DNA of 64,000 nt, taken from assembly GCF_009914755.1 (NCBI RefSeq), contig NC_060938.1; one strand, 5' to 3'. Below the pieces are notes generated by a model. It was not told where the DNA came from. It was given only the letters and a program-made list of their open reading frames with translations, and did not search any database. The stretch's first letter is position 1; every line of letters begins with the position of its first letter. Position numbers and translations under genes: made by a program. Below, piece after piece: positions 4,094 through 55,718 of the stretch. The DNA is from the human T2T-CHM13v2.0 reference genome, Homo sapiens.

Positions 4094-4857
4094 CTTTTGT
4101 GCATTTTTTCCAAGTCCATTAGGGAAATTATCTTTAAAAGTATTTTCACATTGATGAATTTATTGTTCAGTCAGGTTGAGAAAATGAGCCATATTTATTG
4201 AAACCACAATGCAAACAATTAAAAATCAAATTATCAGTTAAATTATCAGCTAAGTAATGTAGATGCTGATTTGTCCAAATCAGCCAAGTAATGTAGATGC
4301 TGATTTGGACAAATCAGCATCTGTGAAGTAAAAGAATGATCGCAGTAAAATTGGATTAGCGAGGTCATCATTTACATATACAGTTGTTGATAGTGTGAGG
4401 GCAAAGTATTAATAGTAGAAATTTAGTTAGACTAGTGGAATTTTAACTTAAGCTATTCCTTTTTGTGACTTGTTAGCTATCAAACTGGCCTGGACCTGAA
4501 AGTTAGTCTTGCTACCTATCTCAAAAGCTTCTTTTGAGAAGATTCAGTAAGTAACCAAGGACTCTTTCTCTCCACTTGCCAGCAAATTTTGTAGAAGCAA
4601 CATGTTAAGCTGGGCAGTTTCCCTCATAGTTGTTTTATGGGCAAAGTGAAAATTGTATTCTTAGATTCATCAGTATGATTTCTTAAATATTTAAGAGAGA
4701 GAAAGCTTGGAAGGTAGTAGCTCCTTATTATTAGGCTTAACCTGAGTTTGATTTGGTAGATTTTAAAAAATATGTAATCTGTGTTTGATTCTTGGTTGTA
4801 TGTAATTTGTTCCTCATCTAAAGAATTTAACGATGGAAATAAACATTCGTGACATGA

Positions 4858-11775: not shown

Positions 11776-13729
<1,954 letters not shown>

Positions 13730-15225: not shown

Positions 15226-16622
15226 TCCTTCCATACCTTGTTAAATTTGAGAATTTTGGTGTTTTTCACGTGTCATTCTAAAACCAACCAGTTTTTAAAC
15301 TCTTGTACATAGCTGTTACATGTAGGGCAATATGTCTTTAAGTAGGGATAAGTTACTCTAAAAGAAATGAATCTTAGATAGTTTTCCCACCAGGCATCCT
15401 ATTGCTTAAGTAAACTTTCTGTTTGAAATGAAACAAATAGTTTTACAGTAGCTAGCATTTATTGAATGCCTGTGTGACTTTGTATTAATCCTACCTTGAA
15501 TGAATGAGGAAAGGAGCTCAGAAAAATAACTTGGTAATTTGCCTATGTGGCCCAGGGTCAATGTAAGAGCTGAAGTCCTGCTCTTTTCACAATATTACAT
15601 TGTCTCCTTTGTTTCCTGGCCACTCATATTACAATCTCCTAAAAGCAACCTGTTATTGCTCTTCTGAATATGAGAAACCCAGTGGAAAGTAATTTGTCCC
15701 CGCTTCACAAACATTTTTAATTATGTTGAGGCATAGAAATATTTAAAGTAGTTTGCATTGGAATTGAAAAACTGAACTATGAGTTTCTTCCACTTCATTA
15801 AAAAGTTTCTTAAACTTTACATTGTTCCCTACATAAAAGCTGAGCAGAATTTTATCAGGCAATTGCCTCAAAGTTATAATCTGGACAATCTTTCTGTAAT
15901 AAAACCCATATGTCATTGGGGAAAGGTGCAGAGCCCTGGCAGAGAGGGCTGGTCTTGAGAGAGGTTCTGCACCCAATCTCGTTAACCAGGGTGCCTCTGG
16001 TAATCCCTCATCCCTCACCAGTGAGAAATCAATCTGTACCACTGAATCTTTTTCAACCAGCCACCAGAAAAATTTACTGCAGAGAAGGCAGTTTGGGGAT
16101 AGTTATCGTGGAAAGTGAGCCAGAAGCAAGGCTAAATGTAGGATGGAGGAATTGGAGAGTCTAAAGAAGAGATTATATTAAACCACACACCACTTTCAGA
16201 GCAGGCACAGTGGAGTCCTCCTTTCAGCCCTGACCTCTCCAAGTATACCCAGGTATTTACAGCTGCCATGAACTGGATAGCCCTGGAGGAACTACGAAAG
16301 TGGTGGGGGATAACAGAAACAGTGGAAACCTGAAAGTTGATTGTAGTCTATCCATTTGCTGTCTCTCAGTGTGTAGTAGCCAGTCCCCTCTCCACACTCT
16401 GCAGCATTTCACATGTTAACCCTATAGTGACAGTTTCAATTGTGGCTTTCTCAATTTGTGATCTATGTACGACATAATAGGGCCTGTAAATCATGACTTG
16501 ACATAGGGGTCATGCTTCTCTCCTGCACGGCATACACCAGTAGCTGATGACCAGTGGGCCCCTCTTGGCATAGTTATTAGAATGGAAGCGGTGTTGCCTT
16601 CCTGTGAAACCTTGTAATCTTA

Positions 16623-16950
<328 letters not shown>

Positions 16951-17326
16951 AAAATAGTTGACAGATTTCACTGACTCTATATAACACTCTCTCTCTCCCA
17001 ATCTTGTTGTGTCTAGAATTGTTTTCTATATAATATAATACATTATGGGGAACAAAGAAAAAGGAGAAAATGGAGGAACTGGGAGTGCCAAGCTGAAGAA
17101 CATGTAGTCTTACTCTGGCCATTCATCCTAGAATTATACCAAGCTACAACCATTGTGAAGAAGAAGGGACAGAACCAGGCAGTGGGGAATAGAAATGGCT
17201 TTCTCTTCTCTGTAAGCAGGCAGTAGTCATCTCTAAAGATTTTTCCCCAAAGAGATTTGAAATTCCTGATGGGAGCTTAAAAAGCTAAGAGTAAAATACA
17301 TTTATTTATAAGACCCTACTAGAAGA

Positions 17327-17379
17327 GGTGTGTGTGGGTGTGTGTGTGTATGTGTGTGTGTGTGTGTGTGTGCGCGTGT
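17327..17379. repeat. (TG)n microsatellite ending in CGCG
   Basis: Read directly from the sequence. Confidence 0.95.
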
Positions 17380-17591
17380 AGACGAGGAATACAGAATAGT
17401 AGCAGAAGGCTGTCTCCCTACTCCTAATGGGATTTTGTAGCAGTATGTGCAAGTTTGTTTCAGAAGTCAAAAATGAACAGATGTTAGTATAAATTACCTC
17501 TGTGTCTGATGTCTTGCAAATTAAAAGCGCAGTTGGCATCACTAAACAATTTCACTAGGTTTGGGGGGGTGCGGTTAGCGGGCGGTGATTA

Positions 17592-17730
17592 CTGTAGCAG
17601 GTCGGTAAGAATCTTCGCCCTGCAGCAGAGCAAGGATAAAGAAATGAGGAATAAAATAAGGGCTATATGAATTAATCAGAAATGTTAACATCTCTGATGA
17701 CAAGTGAACAGGAGGGCACGTGCTCTGGAG
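17592..17730 (+). repeat. 139-bp local duplication, copy 1
   Basis: Identical to 19075-19213 except for 3 substitutions. Confidence 0.97.
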
Positions 17731-19074
17731 CAGCCCCTGACCCACAGCAATTTCTCTGTGCACAAAAAGGGGTTGGTGCTTAGCATCTGATTTATAGGGC
17801 ACAGCCCTCTTTTAGGGAGCGGCTGTGTCATACATTCGTATATCTCCTGTATGGGACTGGCGAGTAGGAAAACTTTCTCTCCTCCCATGTAGGAGATGAT
17901 GTCTTTTGAATTACTTCTACTTTTACAGTGGTTTCCTGCAGCTCTGTGTACTTGGATTAGGTTGAAGGGGGAGGAATGATTGAGTAGAAAAAGGGTTGTT
18001 AAAAAGGATTGGTTAAATTCAAGGAGAGCTTGCCACTGAGAGACTTCAGAATATCTATTTATTTTTCCTTTTAAACCCTTTTGACCCCTTAAATTGTGTG
18101 GATCTTTTAAAATTCTAAGTCTTAAAATATTGGTCATTTTCCCATTTGGGGAAAAACAGTAAGGAGTTGGTGAGTCTGAAGGTCAGCAGGCAGAAATCAT
18201 TGGTTAGAGCAATGCAGTGCTCCAGGCCCAGGATTTTTGGAACAAGGCTCTATTCTCTCCAGAAGACTTTTGTATTGACCGTGTCTGGTTTCCAGAGCTC
18301 CTGCTTCTAGCCATGTTGCAGGATCATTAGTTACATGTTTAAACTTGAGAGTAGACAGATAACCCATCTAGTAGAAATAAGTGAGACCCAATCTGCCCAA
18401 AAGTATAAGTAAATTTCTTTTCCTTCAAGCTGAGGGAAAAGATTCCAAGGAACGGAGTTTTGTTTGCTAGCCTCCCTTTGTGCAGTTTGTTCATTCATTC
18501 ATTCATTCATTCACTCACTCAGAAAATACTAAGTGCGAGAGAACTTACCCCCCTCTGGAAAGTGTTGTGTTAATGATTAGCACTATACCAAGCATGTTCA
18601 TTGCTAATATCCAAGAGAAAAGTAGGGTATTAACATGCTCTCCGTTACAAATGAAGAGACTGAGGCTCAGAGATCTGCCCAGCCCAAGGTGTCACCCTGC
18701 TGCTAAGTGCTAGAGCTGAAACTTAAACTGAGTTCAAATCCTGTGTTCTCTGCAAGAAGCCCATGCTACCTCCTATGGGCAAGACAGTACTTGATTGGAT
18801 TTTCTCTAGAGTAGTTAGTCCTTGACCCCAGTCTCTCCATGAACTTGGCATTATTTGCATTAAGGGAAATGATTTTCTTGCCAAATAAGCAAGGCACATT
18901 TAAAAAGACTCCCATCATGTAGAGAATGGAGCACTGAGGGCCACTAACTAGTCATATTTGTTAATGGAAAGGAAGGAAACTAACATTTTTTGCATTTCTA
19001 CTTGGTTCTAGTTCTTTGGTGTATTATAATTTATCCAGTCAACACTTACTCAGCAGACACTGGGTCTGCTGAGT

Positions 19075-19213
19075 CTGTAGCAGGTCGGTAAGAATCTTCG
19101 CAGTGCAGCAGAGCAAGGATAAAGAAATGAGGAATAAAATAAGGGCTATATGAATTAATCAGAAATGTTAACATCTCTGATGACAAGTGAACAGGAGAGC
19201 ACGTGCTCTGGAG
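19075..19213 (+). repeat. 139-bp local duplication, copy 2 (part of a mosaic insertion)
   Basis: Copy of 17592-17730, flanked by a hairpin and by other locally copied pieces. Confidence 0.97.
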
Positions 19214-20717
19214 TTTGGATCTGATTGTGGATCTTTTGCCAAGGGAGAGAAGACCAAAGCTCTTAACAGTCTCTGCCTTCAGTTTTTACATTTTAGTGGA
19301 GGAAGACAACCATATAAGCTAGTAATTGCATGCAAGTCTTATGGGAACTTTCTTGTACAGGATTTGCTGTAAATCCATGAAGGAAGGAATGGTCTGTTTG
19401 ATTTGGTCTGGGTTGGGGTTGTGAGCACATGAGGCAAGACCCAACACTGGGCTTCTATGCCTAGTTAATGGAATTTCCTTTCCCTTTGTTGGGGCACAGG
19501 AACTAGTGAAAGATGGGGAATGTATAGACTGAAGTTACAAAAGCCTCCCTGTGGTCCCAGAGGTTGTGTAGTTTTTATTTCTTCATTGTACAAGAAAACA
19601 AGAAACTGTTAAACTTAAATTGGGGCAGAGGGGAGCTGGAGGCCATTCATCTAGCTCCATTTGCTCTGGACTTGGGAAAGGCAACAAGGAGGCCAGGGTG
19701 AAGGTCCTTCTCATTCCTGAGAGTGCCTCCCTAGCCACCTCACTTCTTTGGCCAGGACGGAGATGTGTTCTTGGGAGACCACACAGCCTACCCCGTGCCT
19801 ACTGCATGGTTCCAGAAGGCCTGGCTTCCAGAGCCAGCCATCAGCGATCAGAAACTTTCTGCACTGTTAAATCCATTTAAGAAATCTGAAAACATGGCCT
19901 TGCAGGATGAGGATGAGGATGAGGAAGGGGCTGTTACACTACGTATGCTTTCTGAGATCTAAAATGGGAGACCTCTGGAGTAGCCCTTGTAATTGAGAAA
20001 TGTTTTACTTTCATTTTGGAGCCTTATATGTAGGAAAGTAGCTGTATAAACCCACTTGTAACTATAGCATTCAAAGATTGATGGTGCTGAAAGCCGGAGA
20101 AAGACACATAAACCTTGGCTGGCTATATTAAATAGCTAAGGACTGACAATGCCAAGGGAGAGAAGACCAAAGCTCTATAAACCCTACTTTATGACACCAT
20201 CCACAGATGAACTGCACTGAGGGAATATAAACCCTGTTATATTACAGTATCCAGGGACTAACACTGCTGAGAGATAGGGTAAATGATCTCTAATTTTGAT
20301 TTGAGATTATAAATGTCCAGAGACCAGCAACCCAGAGAAGACTAATCTTGGTTGGATTTTAGGCTTCAAGAGCAAACCCCCTGAGATAGTGAACATGAGT
20401 ATTAGGTTAGATTCTAGAGACAGAGATAGGTTTTGGGGGAATCCCCTGGTGATTTGTTTAAAGGTGGATGATAAAATCTTTCCCAGTCATTTGGCATGTA
20501 TCTCAATTGCCAACTTCAGAATAGCTTTGTACAGTTTTAGTTGTCTATAGTGGTTTGTTTTTACCCCCTTTTAGGTTAGTTGGTGATGATTGAATCTGTT
20601 GTGATAGCAACTTGATATATAATTTAAATCAATCTGCATTTTTAAATTAAATCTTCCTATGATTCTTTTTTCCGATTTTAGGTTTTCATTGATCATTTGT
20701 TTGCTTTGTGATTCCAG

Positions 20718-20773
20718 CCAGAGAGATGACACGGGGGAAATTCCTCAATATTCTAGAGAAGCCCAAGAAGTAG
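20718..20773 (+). CDS. LIN52: LIN52 (DREAM/MuvB core subunit) final coding exon
   Basis: Acceptor gattccag|CC AGA GAG ATG ACA CGG GGG AAA TTC CTC AAT ATT CTA GAG AAG CCC AAG AAG TAG = (S)REMTRGKFLNILEKPKK*, the LIN52 C-terminus. LIN52 is the known upstream neighbour of VSX2. Not called in the ORF track. Confidence 0.93.
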
Positions 20774-21905
20774 CAGCTGCTTGCGGACAGGATGTCCTGG
20801 GGTCCGAAACCAAGCTCCCTTCCCGGTGCACCTCTAACAATGCACACCTCACTGCTTGCTTGGGAGAGGCCAGAGGGTGTACCTCCAGGACTGCCCTCTC
20901 CCCTGCTCCTGGCACTCTACACGTCTGAGGACATTCAGCAGCAAGAGAAGAATCTGCTCTACCCAAGGATCATTGCAGTTACTCAATCAACTTTCAGACT
21001 TGAACCTTCTTAGCCTCGGATATTGGTAACAGCTGAGGGCATATCATTCTTAAAGGTCGAAGTCCTGCTTTCTCATTTCTGGAAGTGATTCAGGAGCCCC
21101 AGGATCTTACGGTTGATTTGACTCAGTCATGGCAGTCAGTTGTGACATGTTGATTGGATGGGTTCTTTTGAATTGTTCTTGATCTCTTAGAAAGTGTTTA
21201 CGATGTGAGGAGACCAGAGACCAAGTAGATTCTGGACCAGACCATGCAGCCTGACCTGTGAACTCTCCAGTATATACTAAGTTCCCAGAATCCCCAGCTG
21301 AAGAAACCAGAATCTTCTCGAAATGTATATCTGTTTTTTAAAACTTCTATACCTCTTATGATAGTCCCATTTGCTTTTCATTCCTTACTTCCCAGCCCCA
21401 CCTTCTAGTTCTGACTTCGGGCAGAGGGATCCCTGAGTCCCTCCTGGAATTAGCTTGTATAGTGAAAGGCCCATCCAAGGTTGTCTAAAGACCAATGTGA
21501 AGGTGACAGAAAGGACTTTTGAGTTCTAATTAATCTGTTACAGCTTCAAGCAAGAAAGTCAGTATAGCCTGAAAGACAAGAGAAACGGGATGGTTTATAG
21601 GAGTTCCCATTTGGTTGAAAGCTAGAAGCCCTAATTGACCTTAAAGTAACATGCTATGGGATGGTGGGATTGTCCCCTCTGACAGCACATATGAAATAGT
21701 TCATCTATATAATAGAAACGCACACACACGAAAGAGAATCTTCTGACTTAAATACAACTTTCATGGAGTTCTTCACCACTTATCTGTCTCTGTTAAAATC
21801 TGAAAATCTAGCCCATGGCTAAAATCTATTATATGTGTTCTCCATATTTCTTGTATAAGCCAGTCCCCAGCATCTGATGTTTTGAGAAGTGCATGGAGTT
21901 TCCTA

Positions 21906-45218: not shown

Positions 45219-49100
<3,882 letters not shown>

Positions 49101-53178: not shown

Positions 53179-55718
<2,540 letters not shown>

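What the first reader, a model, noticed from the sequence alone, without database searches (positions are those of the whole stretch)
19048..19263. Mosaic templated insertion built from a fold-back hairpin and two or three nearby donor sequences
Seen, in order: (1) a perfect hairpin actcagcagac-actgg-gtctgctgagt (19048-19074); (2) directly abutting it, a 139-bp copy of 17592-17730 from 1.5 kb upstream, with 3 mismatches; (3) filler containing tgtggatctttt, identical to 18097-18108; (4) a perfect 27-bp copy of 20150-20176, which lies 0.9 kb downstream. There is no TSD, polyA tail or repeat-family homology. Inference: a single double-strand-break or stalled-fork repair event with serial template switching (FoSTeS/MMBIR or Pol-theta type) that became fixed in the germline. 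The low divergence suggests it is recent in primate terms. The copied block carries gaattaatc (homeodomain) and cacgtg (E-box) motifs, so it may have duplicated part of an enhancer ~42 kb upstream of VSX2.
Basis: partly seen in the sequence, partly recalled or inferred. Interest (0 to 1): 0.8.

Follow-up and report, generated by a model that had tools for sequence, protein, structure and literature searches.

The report
Mosaic copied-in insertion in LIN52 intron
A 200-base stretch in the last intron of human LIN52 is stitched together from a fold-back copy of its neighbour and copies of two unique sequences about 1 kb away, an ordinary though unusually clear scar of error-prone DNA repair or replication.

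Summary
The hairpin at 19048-19074 is perfect. 19075-19213 copies 17592-17730 (136 of 139). 19237-19263 copies 20150-20176 (27 of 27). In the whole 3.1-Gb assembly each of these two pieces has exactly two places, both local, so neither belongs to a repeat family. Similarity stops dead at the edges.

The third donor, a 12-mer at 18097, is at chance level. The 23-base filler is unresolved.

New here: removing exactly 19064-19263 (200 bp) joins the flanks into an imperfect palindrome with the junction in its 4-base loop. A strict control gives 36 of 20000 and a loose one 205 of 4000, so this is only suggestive.

Best reading (about 0.7): one break or stalled fork at that palindrome, fold-back priming, then template switches 1.5 kb back and 0.9 kb forward (MMBIR/FoSTeS class). 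Junction microhomology is only 0-1 base.

Three differences in 177 copied bases argue against an age older than the ape-macaque split (P about 0.003). No outgroup or second human assembly was available, so polarity, date and fixation are untested.

The enhancer idea is unsupported: published VSX2 modules lie 16-36 kb upstream. This is a new member of a known kind, of modest interest.

The parts
19048..19058 (.). Left arm of the perfect hairpin. Presumed native sequence and the template of the fold-back copy.
   Evidence: an 11-base arm exactly complementary to 19064-19074.
19059..19063 (.). Hairpin loop ACTGG. Presumed native. The presumed break or stall point lies after 19063.
19064..19074 (+). 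First inserted piece: an 11-base inverted (fold-back) copy of 19048-19058.
   Evidence: It abuts the 139-bp copy with no base between.
19075..19213 (+). Second inserted piece: a direct 139-bp copy of 17592-17730, 136 of 139 identical.
   Evidence: Only 2 places in the 3.1-Gb genome.
19214..19236 (+). A 23-base filler of unresolved origin. TGGATCT occurs twice inside it.
   Evidence: Candidate donors are the 12-mer at 18097 and an 8-mer at 17785, both at chance level.
19237..19263 (+). Last inserted piece: a direct perfect 27-base copy of 20150-20176.
   Evidence: Genome-wide there are 2 places at up to 3 mismatches.
17592..17730 (+). Presumed donor of the 139-bp piece, 1,483 bp upstream. It ends 4 bases after a 13-of-14 palindrome at 17713-17726.
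   Evidence: The 300-bp flanks show no residual similarity.
20150..20176 (+). Presumed donor of the 27-base piece, 913 bp downstream.
18097..18108 (+). Not distinguishable from a chance match.
19053..19062 (.). Left arm of the imperfect palindrome that forms if 19064-19263 is removed.
   Evidence: 9 pairs and 1 mismatch with 19267-19276, with the junction in a 4-base loop. Strict control 36 of 20000. Loose control 205 of 4000.
19267..19276 (.). Right arm of that presumed ancestral imperfect palindrome, now 200 bp away from its partner.

Best explanation
A single complex insertion of about 200 bp (19064-19263) was made by serial template switching during repair of a break, or restart of a stalled fork. 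The site is probably the loop of a small imperfect palindrome in the last intron of LIN52.

Inferred order, written for the + strand (the mirror order on the - strand is equally possible):
1. The 3' end at about 19063 folds back and copies 11 bases of its own upstream arm. This creates the perfect hairpin.
2. It switches 1.48 kb back and copies 139 bases (17592-17730). It leaves the template just past a palindrome.
3. It adds 23 bases of stuttered or untemplated filler.
4. It switches to a site 0.9 kb ahead and copies 27 bases (20150-20176).
5. It rejoins the original duplex at 19264.

What is shown: the pieces, their uniqueness in the genome, their sharp edges and their adjacency.

What is inferred: that this was one event, the polarity (19.1 kb as recipient), the order of the switches, the enzyme, and the ancestral palindrome.

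The event belongs to the MMBIR/FoSTeS class of replicative repair, with a fold-back first step like a Pol-theta snap-back or a short-range template switch. No function is indicated.
For:: 136 of 139 and 27 of 27 identity. Both copies are direct, and they lie 23 bp apart here but 2.4 kb apart at the other loci.

each long piece has exactly two places in the 3.1-Gb genome, and the flanks 17450-17900 and 18600-19700 are otherwise unique.

the 300-bp flanks of both repeat pairs show no residual similarity (shuffles reach the observed score in 185, 129, 157 and 187 of 200, against 0 of 200 for the core). This is not an old duplication or a conversion tract.

of 40 exact direct-repeat rows of 20 bases or more within 3 kb in the window, 3 are this locus, 3 are one 38-bp tandem array and 1 is a 34-bp-spaced pair. 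The other 33 carry sequence I recognise from recall as Alu.

the hairpin is strong (z -4.58), such hairpins are rare (4 loci in 64 kb), and this one abuts the 139-bp copy exactly.

removing exactly 19064-19263 gives a junction-spanning inverted repeat of 9 pairs with 1 mismatch and a 4-base loop. This is reached by 36 of 20000 random 200-bp deletions. Three other boundary choices gave 4, 5 and 5 pairs.

no Rfam family overlaps any piece.

PMC8421209 (passages): germline templated insertions built from up to three templates are described in normal human genomes and attributed to an MMBIR-like process.
Against: Junction microhomology is minimal. It is 0 bases at 19074|19075, 0 at 19263|19264 (TAA only if a 1-base gap is allowed), and 1 base (T) at 19236|19237 only if the chance-level 12-mer donor is accepted. 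PMC8421209 reports at least 1 bp at 138 of 155 and 135 of 148 germline junctions, and an average of 3.7 bp in a tumour.

The two long pieces are direct copies from 0.9-1.5 kb away. The MMB-TI definition in that paper is inverted copies within 100 bp.

The filler has no donor above chance.

The ancestral-palindrome support weakens under a looser control. 205 of 4000 random junctions fold at least as well with 9 or more spanning pairs, and 4 boundaries were tried.

No empty site was seen in any genome. One event, polarity and age are therefore argued from parsimony only.
Confidence: 0.7

Rival explanations
1. Stepwise origin. Two or three separate small events landed next to each other at a fragile palindromic site at different times: a short template switch making the hairpin, a 139-bp templated insertion and a 27-bp templated insertion.
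For: A palindromic site could be hit repeatedly. The pieces differ in divergence, at 3 of 139 against 0 of 27 and 0 of 11. With so few bases this difference is not significant.
Against: Exact abutment (0 bases) of hairpin and 139-bp copy, plus a second unique copy 23 bp further on, needs several rare events within 216 bp. Unique local repeats of this kind occur nowhere else in the 64 kb.
Confidence: 0.12
2. Tandem duplication of a 1,483-bp unit (17592-19074), followed by deletion of most of the second copy. The 27-mer would come from a further event.
For: The copy starts exactly one unit length (1,483 bp) after its source and directly after the end of that unit. The chance-level matches at 17785 and 18097 are collinear with such a unit.
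Against: It needs a duplication, one or more large deletions and a separate 27-base copy from outside the unit (20150 lies beyond 19074). No remnants of the deleted part remain. If it happened in one replication event, it is the same mechanism as the best explanation.
Confidence: 0.06
3. Reverse polarity. The block at 19.1 kb is ancestral, and 17592-17730 and 20150-20176 are copies sent out from it.
For: Nothing in one genome fixes the direction. Identity is symmetric.
Against: It needs two independent copy events out of adjacent sources into two sites. Neither other site shows a mosaic, a hairpin or other copied fragments beside it. Removing the 19.1-kb block restores an imperfect palindrome.
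Confidence: 0.05
4. Non-replicative capture. Free fragments excised from the neighbourhood were ligated into a double-strand break by end joining.
For: There is 0-1 base of microhomology at the junctions. A search listing (abstract start of PMC5087911, not read) mentions capture of ectopic chromosomal sequences at break junctions.
Against: Both donors are still in place, so they were copied and not excised. Both copies are in direct orientation. The first piece is a fold-back copy of the adjacent strand, which requires synthesis.
Confidence: 0.05
5. Assembly artefact of the T2T-CHM13 sequence.
For: Only one assembly could be examined.
Against: The copy differs from its source at 3 bases and has unique junctions and filler. 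Collapsed or chimeric assembly would not create a 23-base unique filler and a perfect fold-back.
Confidence: 0.02

Closest known systems
Germline MMBIR-type templated insertions (MMB-TIs), including multi-template events such as FG-16 (Osia et al. 2021, PMC8421209; passages read)
   Same: The insertion is made of several pieces copied from nearby templates in one locus. It is compatible with fork stalling or break repair by repeated template switching, it does not disrupt a gene, and it is carried in the germline.
   Different: MMB-TIs as defined there are inverted copies from within 100 bp, and most junctions have microhomology. Here only the 11-base fold-back fits that. The 139- and 27-base pieces are direct copies from 1.48 and 0.91 kb away, with 0-1 base of microhomology.
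Short-range template-switch mutations (Loytynoja and Goldman 2017, PMC5453318; Walker et al. 2021, PMC7954356; Monttinen and Loytynoja 2022, PMC8794818; search listings and abstract starts only)
   Same: An inverted copy of adjacent sequence creates a perfect hairpin stem in one step. This is what 19064-19074 looks like.
   Different: Those events return to the original template after the inverted copy. Here the fold-back is followed by 189 further inserted bases from distant direct templates and filler.
FoSTeS/MMBIR complex rearrangements at disease loci (Lee et al. 2007 and Hastings et al. 2009, recalled and not read here; PLP1 studies PMC4352052 and PMC6902434 seen in the listing only)
   Same: Serial switches occur between templates lying within kilobases. 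Short templated segments are joined at breakpoints, and inverted repeats act as initiating sites.
   Different: Those are usually kilobase-to-megabase copy-number changes with microhomology or microhomeology at the joins. This is a 200-bp net insertion with almost blunt joins.
Polymerase-theta end joining with snap-back templated inserts (Kent et al. 2016 and Schimmel et al. 2019, recalled and not read here)
   Same: A fold-back copy lies next to the break, followed by stuttered filler with a repeated 7-mer.
   Different: As I recall, templated inserts of that pathway are mostly a few to a few tens of bases from templates close to the break. A 139-base tract from 1.5 kb away is atypical.

Membership tests
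MMBIR/FoSTeS-type templated insertion | The inserted sequence is a copy of a nearby genomic template that remains in place. | tested here: met
   136 of 139 and 27 of 27 identity to sites 1.48 kb and 0.91 kb away. Both sites are still present.
MMBIR/FoSTeS-type templated insertion | Several templates are joined in one insertion (serial switching). | tested here: met
   a fold-back piece, the 139-bp piece and the 27-bp piece lie within 200 bp. That they arose in one event is inferred.
MMBIR/FoSTeS-type templated insertion | Microhomology at the switch junctions. | tested here: not met
   0 bases at 19074|19075 and at 19263|19264. 1 base at 19236|19237 only if the chance-level donor is accepted. 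TAA only with a 1-base gap. The ancestral flanks are unknown, so microhomeology cannot be excluded.
MMBIR/FoSTeS-type templated insertion | Absence of the insertion from the ancestral allele (an empty site). | not testable with these tools
   No primate or second human genome is held (one search says the genome has no relatives here). The supplement look-ups failed.
MMB-TI as defined for MMBSearch (PMC8421209) | An inverted copy of a template within 100 bp of the insertion, 10 bp or longer. | tested here: inconclusive
   Met by the 11-base fold-back (19064-19074 against 19048-19058). Not met by the two long direct copies.
Short-range template-switch mutation (four-point model) | A local inverted copy that turns adjacent sequence into a perfect inverted repeat. 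| tested here: met
   a perfect 11-bp stem. That it was imperfect or absent before the event is inferred.
Transposable-element or retrotransposition insertion | Multi-copy family, target-site duplication, poly-A tail or terminal repeats. | tested here: not met
   only two copies each in 3.1 Gb; no poly-A and no flanking direct repeat; no Rfam family.
Segmental or tandem duplication | Homology continues beyond the core, or decays gradually, in the flanks. | tested here: not met
   flank alignments are no better than shuffles (185, 129, 157 and 187 of 200 shuffles reach the observed score).
VSX2 super-enhancer module | Lies in a mapped, active, conserved module (hR0-36, hR1-25, hR2-20, hR3-16). 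| tested here: not met
   the insert lies 42.2 kb and the donor 43.7 kb upstream of the first VSX2 exon, inside LIN52. PMC11266796 section 6: conserved sequences overlapping Lin52 had no reporter activity. The figure with coordinates was not visible.

The most novel reading that the evidence does not exclude
The locus preserves the full record of one germline error-prone synthesis event, and that event may be young.

The event would run as follows: a break in the loop of an imperfect palindrome, a fold-back start, kilobase-range direct switches with almost blunt joins, and in-event errors.

The candidate in-event errors are two. One is the tandem CC to AG change 27-28 bases from the first junction. 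The other is a G to A change that turns a 13-of-14 palindrome around the E-box into a perfect 14-base palindrome (19196-19209), which would be a quasi-palindrome correction.

If the three differences arose during synthesis, the insertion could be very young, human-specific or still polymorphic. It would then have added a second copy of a motif-bearing block to the LIN52/VSX2 regulatory neighbourhood.
Probability: 0.08. Interest if true: 0.5.

Novelty: new member of a known kind. Interest (0 to 1): 0.3.

Why it matters
Clean, fully resolved mosaics like this one show that replicative template switching writes small multi-source insertions into the human germline. They give a natural record of switch distances (11 bases away, then 1.5 kb back, then 0.9 kb forward), tract lengths and join types. 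The near-blunt joins and long direct tracts fall between the usual descriptions of Pol-theta inserts and of MMBIR. If the empty site in other primates confirms a palindrome loop as the entry point, the locus would be a neat example of a small imperfect palindrome acting as a germline fragile point. No functional consequence is indicated. It lies in an intron, 1,455 bp from the last LIN52 exon, and outside the mapped VSX2 enhancer modules.

Tried and rejected
Repeat family: rejected. Whole-genome searches found two places only for each long piece.

Structured RNA or small-RNA gene duplication: rejected. The Rfam search of 16500-21000 gave 5 weak matches, all at 16658-17417 (Alu-like SRP, two miRNA families and SCARNA7, all below gathering scores). 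None lies in a piece.

Old duplication with a conversion tract: rejected.

Third donor (12-mer at 18097) and a further 8-mer (ATCTGATT, 17785-17792): both at chance level. The filler's internal 7-base repeat is matched by 905 of 20000 random 23-mers. I did not run a genome-wide search of the filler alone.

Microhomology or homeology that would fix the direction of synthesis: I compared both directions by eye and found nothing convincing.

Dating by outgroups: not possible. The held genome has no relatives.

Published structural-variant tables. In PMC6749001, 12 of 14 supplementary files were searched and LIN52 occurred 0 times. The only coordinate hit was an unrelated chr20 row. File 13 could not be read in time and file 14 was not searched. 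These supplements may therefore still bear on the date.

Earlier findings of this scan were not open.

Print check. A search for LIN52 together with template-switch terms listed 15 of 1,141 papers, none of which holds LIN52. A search for VSX2, LIN52 and enhancer found 8 papers. The passages I read in two of them do not mention this insertion.
Full report
**What is there.**
- 19048-19074 is a perfect hairpin: an 11-base arm, the loop ACTGG, and an 11-base arm.
- 19075-19213 is a direct copy of 17592-17730, 136 of 139 identical. The differences are 17619-17620 CC against AG, and 17715 G against A.
- 19214-19236 is a 23-base filler.
- 19237-19263 is a perfect direct copy of 20150-20176.
- There is no poly-A run and no flanking direct repeat.

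By the hub's annotation the site lies in the last intron of LIN52. It is 1,455 bp before the last exon and 42.2 kb before the first VSX2 exon.

**Is it more than chance, and is it a repeat family?**
The whole 3.1-Gb assembly that holds the window could be searched.
- A 231-base query over the segment found 2 places: itself and 17592-17730.
- A 451-base query around the source found the same 2 at E up to 10.
- A 1,101-base query over the insertion and its flanks also found the same 2.
- The 27-mer, at up to 3 mismatches, has 2 places on the forward strand, 0 on the reverse and 0 for the reversed control.

The tool warns that its first look is loose, and one search did miss the 27-base match. 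Short matches therefore need the pattern search.

Within the window there are 40 exact direct-repeat rows of 20 bases or more within 3 kb. Three are this locus, three are one 38-bp tandem array and one is a 34-bp-spaced pair. The other 33 carry what I recognise from recall as Alu sequence, and they coincide with the hub's masked stretches.

The 300-bp flanks of both repeat pairs are no more alike than shuffles. Shuffles reach the observed score in 185, 129, 157 and 187 of 200 trials, against 0 of 200 for the core. This is not an eroded duplication or a conversion tract between old paralogues.

The hairpin folds at -12.4 kcal/mol as DNA, with z -4.58 and 0 of 200 shuffles as good. Perfect stems of 11 or more with loops up to 8 occur at only 4 loci in the 64 kb. 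This one touches the 139-bp copy with no base between them.

Rfam finds nothing in any piece.

**What does not hold.**
The 12-mer shared with 18097-18108 is real but at chance level.
- Random 24-mers of the window find an exact match of 12 or more within 1.5 kb in 269 of 3000 trials, and within 2.5 kb in 366 of 3000. These controls include repeats, which inflates them. Matches of exactly 12 occurred in 49 and 94 of 3000.
- Shuffled fillers reach the real filler's best local score in 50 of 300.
- A further 8-mer (17785-17792) and the filler's internal 7-base repeat are equally unremarkable. The repeat is matched by 905 of 20000 random 23-mers.

The filler is therefore unresolved. The mosaic has two secure distant donors plus the fold-back.

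**A new observation on the entry site.**
If exactly 19064-19263 (200 bp) is taken out, the joined flanks form an imperfect palindrome. 19053-19062 pairs with 19267-19276 at 9 pairs with one C-C mismatch, and the junction lies inside a 4-base loop.
- Random 200-bp deletions in the window give a junction-spanning ungapped stem this good in 36 of 20000 trials.
- Three other boundary choices gave 4, 5 and 5 pairs.
- A looser control is less impressed. 205 of 4000 random junctions fold at -6.5 kcal/mol or lower with 9 or more spanning pairs.

I take this as suggestive support for two points. The insertion is the 200 bases from 19064. The entry point was the loop of a small imperfect palindrome, whose left arm then served as template for the fold-back piece.

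**Mechanism.**
The economical reading is one event. A 3' end was freed at the palindrome loop by a break or a stalled fork. It primed on its own upstream arm for 11 bases. It then switched 1.48 kb back for 139 bases and left that template 4 bases after a 13-of-14 palindrome (17713-17726). It added 23 bases of stutter or untemplated filler. It switched to a site 0.91 kb ahead for 27 bases, and it rejoined at 19264. The mirror order on the other strand is equally possible.

This places it in the MMBIR/FoSTeS class. The first step looks like a Pol-theta snap-back or a short-range template switch. Passages of PMC8421209 describe germline insertions in normal people built from up to three templates and assign them to an MMBIR-like process, so the kind is known.

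Several points count against a textbook fit.
- The resolved joins have 0-1 base of microhomology. That paper reports at least 1 bp at 138 of 155 and 135 of 148 germline junctions.
- The long tracts are direct and about a kilobase away, not inverted and within 100 bp.
- 139 bases is long for what I recall of Pol-theta inserts.

Enzyme, direction and single-event origin are inferences.

**Age.**
The secure copied bases number 177 (139 + 27 + 11), with 3 differing bases. That is 2 events if the adjacent CC to AG change is counted as one.

Two copies diverging since the insertion would be expected to differ about as much as two species that split at that time. Using recalled genome-wide divergences, the expected number of differences and the probability of seeing 3 or fewer are as follows.

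| Split | Expected differences | P(3 or fewer) |
|---|---|---|
| human-chimpanzee | 2.1 | 0.83 |
| human-orangutan | 6.0 | 0.15 |
| human-macaque | 11.5 | 0.0034 |

An origin before the ape-macaque split is therefore unlikely, and anything younger is open.

The estimate is an upper bound, because the differences may be synthesis errors.
- The tandem change lies 27-28 bases from the first join.
- The G to A change makes the palindrome around the E-box perfect in the copy (19196-19209). This is what a quasi-palindrome correction would do.
- The opposite history is not excluded: a later mutation may have broken a perfect palindrome in the source. Under random mutation that history is the likelier one.

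All three CpG sites are intact in both copies.

No outgroup genome or second human assembly was available. Published SV tables could not settle it either (see Tried and rejected). 'Fixed' and 'recent' therefore remain untested.

**The enhancer idea.**
The motifs are there, but they are common. CACGTG occurs 9 times and AATTAAT 12 times in the window.

Section 6 of PMC11266796 names the conserved human VSX2 super-enhancer modules hR0-36, hR1-25, hR2-20 and hR3-16, which lie 16-36 kb upstream. It states that conserved sequences of the super-enhancer overlapping Lin52 had no activity in the reporter assay. Passages of PMC8752785 agree for the mouse.

The insert (42.2 kb upstream) and its source (43.7 kb upstream) lie beyond those modules, inside LIN52. 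The figure with coordinates was not visible, so I cannot say whether this exact block was tested. The RefSeq functional elements listed by the hub do not overlap it.

**Verdict.**
It is a new, unusually clean member of a known kind, with modest interest (0.3).

Noticed in passing
window 4252-4325: A 22-base unit (AAGTAATGTAGATGCTGATTTG) occurs twice, 34 bp apart. Each copy is followed by an inverted copy of its own 3' part, giving two adjacent hairpins with stems of 9 and 13 bases. It looks like another small template-switch or duplication product.
   Followed up: partly
window 54550-54702: A tandem array with a 38-bp unit in about 4 perfect copies, between LOC105370564 and VSX2. It is probably a minisatellite.
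   Followed up: no
window 17713-17726 and 19196-19209: The E-box sits in a 14-base palindrome. It is imperfect (13 of 14) in the presumed source and perfect in the copy. One of the three differences between the copies is exactly the base that perfects it.
   Followed up: partly
window 17560-17587: A G-rich run (G7 and several GG/GGG groups on the + strand) ends 5 bases before the left edge of the 139-bp source. If synthesis ran leftwards on the + strand template, copying would have stopped just before it. It is not a canonical four-run G-quadruplex motif by eye.
   Followed up: no
window 20176-20185 and 20226-20235: A 10-base direct repeat, TATAAACCCT, is spaced 50 bp apart. Its first copy starts at the last base of the 27-base donor.
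   Followed up: no
window 16658-16942 and 17328-17372: Alu-like matches to the SRP RNA model, below the gathering score, and a (GT)n microsatellite of 22.5 units lie just upstream of the 139-bp source.
   Followed up: no
window 13047-13072 and 47477-47503: These are the two other perfect hairpins in the window with stems of 11 bases or more and loops of 4 bases or fewer.
   Followed up: no
window 17591-17603 versus 19048-19058: The left edge of the 139-bp source (ACTGTAGCAGGTC) resembles the hairpin's left arm (ACTCAGCAGAC): ACT, AGCAG and C are shared, with two small gaps. This is possible homeology between donor edge and entry site. Its significance was not tested.
   Followed up: no
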